A DNA stretch of 64,000 nucleotides from Octopus vulgaris (taxonomy: Eukaryota), in contig OX597831.1 in NCBI GenBank assembly GCA_951406725.2, positions 73,470,001-73,534,000 on the forward strand. Reading direction: 5' to 3'. A program made the translations under genes and the position numbers. The notes beneath the pieces are model-generated. The model worked only from the letters and a program-made list of their open reading frames with translations, was not told the origin of the DNA and searched no databases. Numbering within the stretch: the stretch's first letter is position 1; every line of letters starts with the position of its first letter. Below are positions 31,802 to 32,072 of the stretch, one piece after another.

Positions 31802-32072
31802 TAAAGAGTGTTTGCCAACATAGCATGGCAGTCCTGGTTTAGGACGAATGTTGCTGTAATTTAGTCCCAGGAATGGGGGGTGCTAGACTCCCTTGTTCGA
31901 AAGTATAAGGATATAGATCGTGTTGTATAGCCAGCTGGAGACGATGTCTCCTGCGGCTAAATTACAGCAACATTCGTCCTAAACCAGGACTGCCATGTTA
32001 TGTTGGCAAGTAATCTTTACTCCAAAGGACTGTTGCTGAATATCTCTGATTGTGAGATTTAAAAATAGTAAT
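31802..32072 (+). mobile_element. structured element related to the hammerhead element, with a 5' inverted duplication
   Basis: 31875-32072 matches 56703-56888 closely; 31802-31872 is the reverse complement of 31949-32019. Confidence 0.7.

What the first reader, a model, noticed from the sequence alone, without database searches (positions are those of the whole stretch)
31875..32072. Diverged relatives of the hammerhead element keep the same fold through compensatory changes
31875-32072 and 56703-56888 share ordered landmarks with 12771-12917. These are GGGATGCT..CCC..TTCG.AAATATAAGGACACAG; hairpin GACACA/TGTGTC with a different loop (56703 copy); hairpin GGAGAC-GAT-GTCTCC where the first element has AGGAAGC-ATCGAT-GCTTCCT; and a multibranch domain. 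In that domain TCCT-AAACC-AGGA replaces TCCC-TTAC-GGGA, CTGCCA-TGTTATGT-TGGCA replaces CTGTCA-TATTATGT-TGACAG, and the closing stem CAGCAACA/TGTTGCTG replaces GTGGTGTA/TACAACCAC. Sequence has diverged while pairing and the T.TTATGT loop persist, which points to selection on an RNA structure. It could be a reverse-transcriptase recognition signal or a second functional RNA motif (inference). These two copies start just downstream of where the hammerhead would be.
Basis: partly seen in the sequence, partly recalled or inferred. Interest (0 to 1): 0.75.

Follow-up and report, generated by a model that had tools for sequence, protein, structure and literature searches.

The report
Conserved copying signal in ribozyme repeats
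These are truncated copies of a small protein-free jumping repeat that carries a predicted self-cutting RNA motif; eight diverged subfamilies keep the same base-paired fold through compensating changes, and a branched part of that fold holds one of the two fixed points where new copies begin, so it likely tells a Penelope-type reverse transcriptase where to start.

Summary
Confirmed and extended. 31875 and 56703 are 5'-truncated copies of a ~350-nt non-coding repeat (family B); 12667 belongs to sister family A. Longer B copies carry a type I hammerhead. I found eight subfamilies, 51-80% identical, with one shared architecture. Covariation beats every control: 34 of 55 pairs change on both sides, 0 of 500 shuffles reach that, and 0 of 1000 re-pairings do on a sequence-only alignment. 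Copies begin at two fixed points, the unit end and a site inside the four-way 3' junction. Insertions are mostly two-armed, one arm from each point (30 of 39), often with target duplications, matching Penelope reverse-transcriptase biochemistry. Verdict: a Penelope-mobilised non-LTR retrozyme whose 3' domain is probably the RT recognition and start element (inferred). No partner ORF was found; RNA reads show only read-through. This scan already noted twin start points in other retrozymes of this genome, and once covariation.

The parts
31876..32073 (+). Family B retrozyme copy, forward arm, monomer positions 149-346, running to the outer start point (unit end); 5'-truncated about 25 nt downstream of the predicted hammerhead cut
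   Evidence: 94.9% to the family B profile
31802..31872 (-). Inverted arm of the same insertion, monomer positions 222-292, beginning at the inner start point
31876..31906 (+).
   Evidence: folds
31929..31958 (+). P3: outer stem, internal loop and inner hairpin GGAGAC-GAT-GTCTCC
   Evidence: helices 2 and 3
31965..32038 (+). P4 four-way junction: closing stem 31965-31972/32031-32038 with hairpins P4a, P4b and P4c
   Evidence: 7 of 8 closing pairs change on both sides
32018..32029 (+). P4c mini-hairpin; its loop (32022-32025) is where the inner copy start point clusters
   Evidence: P4c intact or with one mismatch in 7 families, broken in A
32042..32058 (+). P5 hairpin, upstream of the outer start point
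56679..56895 (+). Family B copy from inside the hammerhead (stem III, 3' side) to the outer start point, with a ~19-nt deletion at 56760/56761
12655..12920 (+). Family A copy, monomer positions 32-297, ending at the inner start point next to (TA)n
12708..12752 (+). Type I hammerhead of the family A copy (core 12714-12720 and 12733-12736; predicted cut after 12746)
   Evidence: sequence; covariation of stems I-III

Best explanation
The copies belong to a family of ~350-nt non-coding, hammerhead-bearing retroelements (non-LTR retrozymes) whose conserved 3' domain is likely the signal that a Penelope-type reverse transcriptase/endonuclease binds and uses to set where copying starts. Shown: one architecture kept by covariation in eight subfamilies; two fixed start points, one at the unit end and one 13-17 nt 3' of hairpin P4b inside the four-way junction; mostly two-armed insertions with one arm from each point, often with target duplications; arms that cross the hammerhead cut site and the unit junction. 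Inferred: a PLE protein supplied in trans makes a staggered cut in AT-rich DNA; each free 3' end primes cDNA at one of the two sites on an uncut multimeric or circular RNA; the two cDNAs are joined head to head. The hammerhead and its long rod would make or close that RNA rather than define the copy ends.
For: Eight subfamilies at 51-80% identity fold separately into the same helices (z -3.8 to -9.7 for whole units). Sequence-only alignment with the structure taken from one family: 0 of 1000 column re-pairings reach the observed values for any of 8 references, whole unit or 3' domain. On 31 real copies: 91% of cells paired, 34 of 55 pairs change on both sides, 0 of 500 shuffles, slid partners 31-48%; 3' domain alone 21 of 39 pairs. 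Family F has U3-A8 for C3-G8 in the core, a covariation known from PLE hammerheads (PMC4209133, part 1 read). Start points: 85 of 111 two-armed insertions use one inner and one outer end. In 48 family B loci picked only by an exact 22-mer, 39 are two-armed and 30 of those are inner+outer; 81 of 95 arm ends fall in the two clusters. Target duplications of 8 nt or more in 19 of 41 two-armed insertions, null mean 0.5. Only 2 of 42 long arms stop near the cut site; 34 cross it and 16 cross the unit junction. The anole Poseidon protein cuts and extends both strands, starts at two internal RNA sites (one in an AC-rich stem-loop) and does not need hammerhead cleavage (PMC11167929, parts 1-3 of 4 read). 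Several Neptune-type PLE families with long open frames exist in this genome.
Against: No PLE ORF carries this unit as its pLTR among 64 PLE loci or among 324 loci with the element (9 also hold PLE fragments, none attached), so the enzyme is unidentified. The inner site also has weak sequence conservation (YTTYAC), so structure and sequence are not separated. P4c is broken in family A and has a mismatch in F, A2 and C, and the 3' domain of family C folds barely better than shuffles (z -1.2). Wobble pairs do not mark the strand: G.U 51 versus A.C 60 and 17 versus 13. The measure 'further pair types' did not beat shuffles (205 of 500; 380 of 500). RNA-seq shows no discrete or strand-biased transcript and no pile-up of ends. 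Cells count sequences, not events; there are only 8 lineages, and R-scape was not available.
Confidence: 0.62

Rival explanations
1. Same element and same Penelope-type mobilisation, but the 3' fold is selected for making or keeping the RNA (snRNA-type transcription and 3'-end formation, circle closure, stability), while the start points are set by local A/T-rich sequence.
For: The P0 5' strand carries the A(T/C)CAGT motif found 57-61 nt upstream of U2 genes in 13 of 13 promoter-bearing loci (2 of 15 had a LINE end there instead), and it predicts a start near where the half-LINE inserts. P5 resembles the hairpin at the U2 3' end (post hoc). Short matches between target and element occur at both start points.
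Against: The inner start keeps 13-17 nt from P4b in all eight families while its distance to the outer start varies from 47 to 58 nt. The strongest covariation is in the helix that encloses it.
Confidence: 0.22
2. The copies are 3' ends (pLTRs) of autonomous Penelope-like elements, most of them 5'-truncated, not a self-standing retrozyme.
For: Partial tandems, inverted 5' arms and two ends are PLE hallmarks (PMC8557442, passages). Retrozymes derive from pLTRs in Xenopus (bioRxiv 10.64898/2026.07.22.740005, parts 1-3 of 5 read).
Against: Upstream of the hammerhead the sequence returns to the previous unit's 3' end with a ~350-nt period. No RT or endonuclease is attached. The only ORF found inside units is a separate half-LINE with its own target duplication.
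Confidence: 0.06
3. The complementarity is not selected at the RNA level; it arises from template-switch correction of DNA quasi-palindromes, or is selected in single-stranded cDNA.
For: Both strands fold about equally well and there is no G.U over A.C excess.
Against: Bulges, internal loops and a four-way junction keep their size; the tertiary C3-G8/U3-A8 pair covaries; a helix closed over ~60 nt with nested hairpins covaries at 7 of 8 pairs.
Confidence: 0.05
4. The 3' domain is a second catalytic or ligand-binding RNA motif unrelated to reverse transcription.
For: A few unpaired positions are invariant across the eight families, for example in the P3 loop and the P4b loop.
Against: No Rfam family matches. 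Few unpaired nucleotides are invariant, and copy ends in the domain are explained as start points.
Confidence: 0.05

Closest known systems
Animal non-LTR retrozymes (Cervera and de la Pena 2020, PMC7229834: passages and Discussion read; Li, Clavereau and Pollet 2026, bioRxiv 10.64898/2026.07.22.740005: parts 1-3 of 5 read)
   Same: Non-coding 348-361-nt units, 40-46% GC, type I hammerhead with short palindromic stem III and a mismatch at the base of stem II (as in axolotl HHR_Amex2), thousands of copies, PLE mobilisation proposed.
   Different: Here copies are dispersed, mostly 1-2 truncated units, not long arrays. The parts I read show only minimum-energy folds and no covarying domain outside the ribozyme, and do not map start points. 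Circles are shown there, not here. No cephalopod is covered in the passages found.
Poseidon PLE of Anolis (PAc), Frangieh et al. 2024, PMC11167929 (parts 1-3 of 4 read; supplementary Fig. S1B/S2C not seen and may show the RNA fold)
   Same: Two internal RT start sites separated by a 'tail', one in an AC-rich stem-loop downstream of the hammerhead; both DNA strands cut and extended; uncut RNA used.
   Different: PAc is autonomous and its start region overlaps the ORF; PLE tails are given as 30-40 nt versus 47-58 nt here. That paper says the start site is not homologous to the cut DNA, whereas short microhomology is seen here. No covariation model was given in the text read.
pLTRs of EN+ Penelope-like elements with hammerheads (PMC4209133, part 1 read; PMC8557442, passages)
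   Same: Partial tandem plus inverted 5'-truncated copy, optional tail, AT-rich or (TA)n targets, U3-A8 core variant.
   Different: No ORF. The hammerhead has a long covarying stem I rod. The Neptune-type PLEs seen here have a different, short AT-rich end or no hammerhead core.
Telomerase RNA template domain (recalled, not tested)
   Same: A helix-enclosed loop presents a start site, with a hairpin just 5' of it, to an RT of the telomerase/PLE lineage.
   Different: No repeat synthesis, no template boundary stop, no pseudoknot found; analogy only.

Membership tests
Animal non-LTR retrozyme | Type I hammerhead in the unit | tested here: met
   Core and stems I-III present in all 8 family profiles, with covarying stems. 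Rfam models do not reach gathering score.
Animal non-LTR retrozyme | Short non-coding unit of low GC | tested here: met
   348-361 nt, GC 0.40-0.46; no own ORF.
Animal non-LTR retrozyme | Head-to-tail repeats with two consecutive hammerheads | tested here: met
   100 of 243 loci hold partial tandems, but only 7 show two cores one period apart and no run exceeds 3 fragments; long arrays were not seen.
Animal non-LTR retrozyme | Self-cleavage in vitro | not testable with these tools
   Needs transcription assay. No pile-up of copy ends or read ends at the cut site.
Animal non-LTR retrozyme | Accumulates as circular RNA | tested here: inconclusive
   19-24 head-to-tail junction reads per run fit tandem DNA equally well; most reads run on into flanks.
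Penelope-like element (autonomous) | RT plus GIY-YIG ORF between pLTRs | tested here: not met
   None attached in 324 element loci or 64 PLE loci; sample limited.
PLE-type insertion footprint | Partial tandem, inverted 5' arm, two alternative ends separated by a tail | tested here: met
Known Rfam RNA families (for the 3' domain) | Match at gathering score | tested here: not met
   0 matches in 8 loci, one per family; only chance hits at E up to 10 in the family C copy.

The most novel reading that the evidence does not exclude
The P4 four-way junction is a telomerase-RNA-like template domain for Penelope reverse transcriptases: a helix-enclosed loop that loads a PLE dimer and offers two structure-defined start sites on one uncut or circular RNA, one for each cut DNA strand. 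The eight subfamilies would be a natural mutational scan of that element, and the domain could be grafted onto other RNAs to make them PLE substrates.
Probability: 0.25. Interest if true: 0.8.

Novelty: new variant of a known kind. Interest (0 to 1): 0.55.

Why it matters
How Penelope-type enzymes recognise their RNA and choose two internal start sites is open: only one such protein has been reconstituted, and retrozyme mobilisation by PLEs is a proposal. Here a covariation-supported secondary structure places one start site in a defined loop in eight natural variants, which gives exact mutants and rescues to test. It also shows that animal retrozymes can be under selection over the whole unit, not only at the ribozyme. 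The element class itself is known, and nothing suggests a host function for these copies.

Tried and rejected
Rfam: the window scan at E<=1 listed 150 of 231 hits, all microsatellite-driven miRNA or snoRNA matches, none on the three copies; none at gathering in 8 family loci. The repeat finder was swamped by microsatellites and SINEs. Partner search: a very abundant Neptune-type family (15,874 candidates) has neither hammerhead core nor this unit in its 3' end in 30 loci; a PF01541 search gave further PLE families without it. An ORF-bearing 2-kb form was first read as a possible coding version of the element and rejected: the ORF is a separate half-LINE with a target duplication of about 20 nt. 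A ninth profile (B2) collapsed onto B during iteration and was dropped. Three of six D representatives were really E copies and were left out of alignment A2. Cleavage-defined copy ends were rejected (9 of 504 fragment starts within 3 nt of the cut). The strand test by wobble pairs was uninformative. RNA: no RNA holder listed by the index; family C reads matched poorly, 72-148 per run, so says nothing; the RNA runs carry a species label that may differ from the window's. A pseudoknot between the P3 loop and the P4 junction was considered by eye and fails in family A. Literature: five full-text searches (combining hammerhead, retrozyme, Penelope, octopus, cephalopod, covariation, pLTR, internal initiation) found no description of this family or of a covarying retrozyme 3' domain. 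Repbase/Dfam and paper supplements were not seen.

Full report
Observation. The window lies in a 2.8-Gb animal assembly; that it is octopus-like rests on recall of its SINE and on earlier scan notes, not on a call. Both families are abundant: 2040 and 2449 first-look candidates (lower bounds). One exact 22-mer of hairpin P4b occurs 2672 times, with 0 for the reversed control.

What the element is. Flanks of the top 30 hits per family show that longer B copies continue upstream into a type I hammerhead, and that both families are ~350-nt units whose 5' end runs into the previous unit's 3' end. Following diverged hits gave six more subfamilies, A2, B3, C, D, E and F (573-3226 candidates each, overlapping). 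Further ones were glimpsed but not collected. The eight profiles are 348-361 nt and 51-80% identical. Each folds alone into largely the same order: hairpin P0, a long rod ending in the hammerhead, hairpins P2 and P3, a four-way junction P4 (P4a, P4b, P4c), then P5 and usually P6 (82% of predicted pairs coincide within 2 columns and 45% exactly). The window copies map as B 149-346 plus an inverted arm B 222-292, B 122-352 with a ~19-nt deletion, and A 32-297.

Covariation. With a sequence-only alignment and the structure predicted from one family, the other seven were scored against re-pairing of columns that keeps each column's history. None of 1000 permutations reached the observed pairing or double-change counts, for all 8 references and for both the whole unit and the 3' domain (for example B 3' domain 35 compensated cells versus 12.2 +/- 3.8). 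On 31 real copies (alignment A2), RNAalifold gives a covariation term of -7.6 kcal/mol. The named structure has 91% of cells paired and 34 of 55 pairs changed on both sides, 0 of 500 shuffles, and 31-48% paired when partners are slid; the 3' domain alone has 21 of 39. That structure was chosen after seeing the alignment, so one search is the cleaner test. By family majority, 31 of 51 pairs use two or more Watson-Crick types, including the catalytic C3-G8 pair, which is U3-A8 in family F, a variant known from PLE hammerheads (PMC4209133, part 1 read). Against: 'further pair types' did not beat shuffles, wobble pairs do not reveal the strand, and family C's 3' domain has z of only -1.2.

The 12667 copy stops before the 3' strand of the true P4 stem; the homologous stem differs from B's by double changes at 6 of 8 pairs. 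The first landmark is one strand of the stem I rod. The 56703 hairpin is a deletion product, and that copy starts inside the hammerhead.

What the 3' domain marks. Fragment 3' ends fall in two clusters, the unit end and about 55 nt inside it. In every family the inner cluster lies 13-17 nt 3' of P4b, in or next to the loop of the small P4c hairpin inside the junction, while its distance to the outer end varies from 47 to 58 nt. Of 111 two-armed insertions, 85 pair one inner with one outer end (loci chosen by similarity). In 48 family B loci taken from the first 100 listed pattern hits, 39 are two-armed and 30 of these are inner plus outer (my count); 81 of 95 arm ends lie in the two clusters. 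Direct repeats of 8 nt or more flank 19 of 41 two-armed insertions (null mean 0.5, maximum 2 in 30 shufflings), often overlapping the element ends by a few bases; the window's own insertion, which abuts a SINE tail, has none. 5' ends ignore the hammerhead: of 42 arms reaching it, 2 stop near the cut, 34 cross it and 16 cross the unit junction. The template is therefore uncut, multimeric or circular (inference). This matches the only reconstituted PLE, which cuts and extends both strands, starts at two internal sites, one in an AC-rich stem-loop, and works without hammerhead cleavage (PMC11167929, parts 1-3 of 4 read), and the known PLE tandem, inverted and tail footprint (PMC8557442, passages). 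Earlier scan notes describe the same twin start points in younger 360- and 485-nt retrozymes of this genome. I saw the two end clusters, in the same turn as those notes, and ran afterwards.

Partner and expression. PLE families with long open frames and a Neptune-type linker (clade label recalled) are abundant, but none carries this unit: no attached hit in 64 PLE loci, and 9 of 324 element loci hold unattached PLE fragments. One PLE group has a minimal U3-A8 hammerhead in 20 of 29 loci, followed by a short AT-rich end unlike this domain. RNA-seq raw reads (about 6% of three runs) gave 1343-1780 family B reads per run, similar in both orientations, with 57-65% running on into flanks, no pile-up of ends and 19-24 head-to-tail junction reads. 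This fits passive read-through and neither shows nor excludes circles.

Promoter lead. A 1.7-kb ORF1-only half-LINE (weak zinc-knuckle hit, E 0.001, below cutoff) inserts at one site just upstream of the hammerhead in families A, A2 and C, with a ~20-nt duplication. Earlier notes proposed this site is an snRNA-type start. I checked in part: the A(T/C)(C/T)AGT motif lies 57-61 nt before U2 genes in 13 of 13 promoter-bearing loci, and the same motif in P0 predicts a start at A 66-68 and C 76-78, near the half-LINE 3' junctions at A 61-66 and C 79-85. Part of P0 may therefore be conserved as DNA.

Verdict. A real, selected RNA architecture in a Penelope-mobilised non-LTR retrozyme (identity about 0.9). 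The 3' domain most likely serves RT recognition and start-site placement (0.62), with RNA production or stability as the main rival. The class is known (PMC7229834; bioRxiv 10.64898/2026.07.22.740005). A covarying 3' domain tied to a start site was not found in five literature searches; supplements and repeat databases were not seen.

Noticed in passing
L078:2534-4211; also L290-L295, L298-L301: ORF1-only half-LINE (RRM-like plus CCHC knuckle, no RT) inserted with a ~20-nt duplication at one site just upstream of the hammerhead in families A, A2 and C, sometimes in tandem; a second, ~70% related cargo uses the same site in family C. Noted before by this scan.
   Followed up: partly
L397 and L404, upstream of 1501: U2 genes whose promoter region is replaced by a LINE-like 3' end ending AATAAAG a few bases before the first U2 base, like the cargo ends in the retrozymes.
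   Followed up: partly
L404:2106-2196, L402:2485-2573, L394:772-860: A ~90-nt two-armed insertion of a C-like subfamily (inner-end arm plus outer-end arm, ~8-nt duplication) inside another repeat that was then amplified; L079 holds an apparently empty copy of that repeat.
   Followed up: no
L307-L331, 300-1100 nt after the endonuclease: Neptune-type PLE group (up to 781-aa frames) with a minimal U3-A8 hammerhead about 85 nt before its (TA)n-adjacent end, in 20 of 29 loci.
   Followed up: partly
L101-L130, L286-L289: Very abundant young Neptune-type PLE (15,874 candidates, frames up to 869 aa) with two ends about 40 nt apart and no canonical hammerhead core in its 3' end.
   Followed up: partly
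L215:1864-2118, L295:2058-2298, L192:1963-2176, L168:1-286, L065-L069: Further diverged subfamilies of the same unit, not collected.
   Followed up: no
L392-L406, just after the U2 3' end: A conserved hairpin (A)TCTCCC-N4-GGGAGA(T) followed by an A-rich stretch at the U2 3' end resembles retrozyme P5 and its flank; post hoc, untested.
   Followed up: no
window 5847-6247, 12217-12612, 32075-32497 and about ten more: Abundant ~400-nt SINE copies on both strands; one abuts the outer end of the 31875 copy and one precedes the 12667 copy.
   Followed up: no
window 61966-62758: Tandem array of 53-nt units.
   Followed up: no
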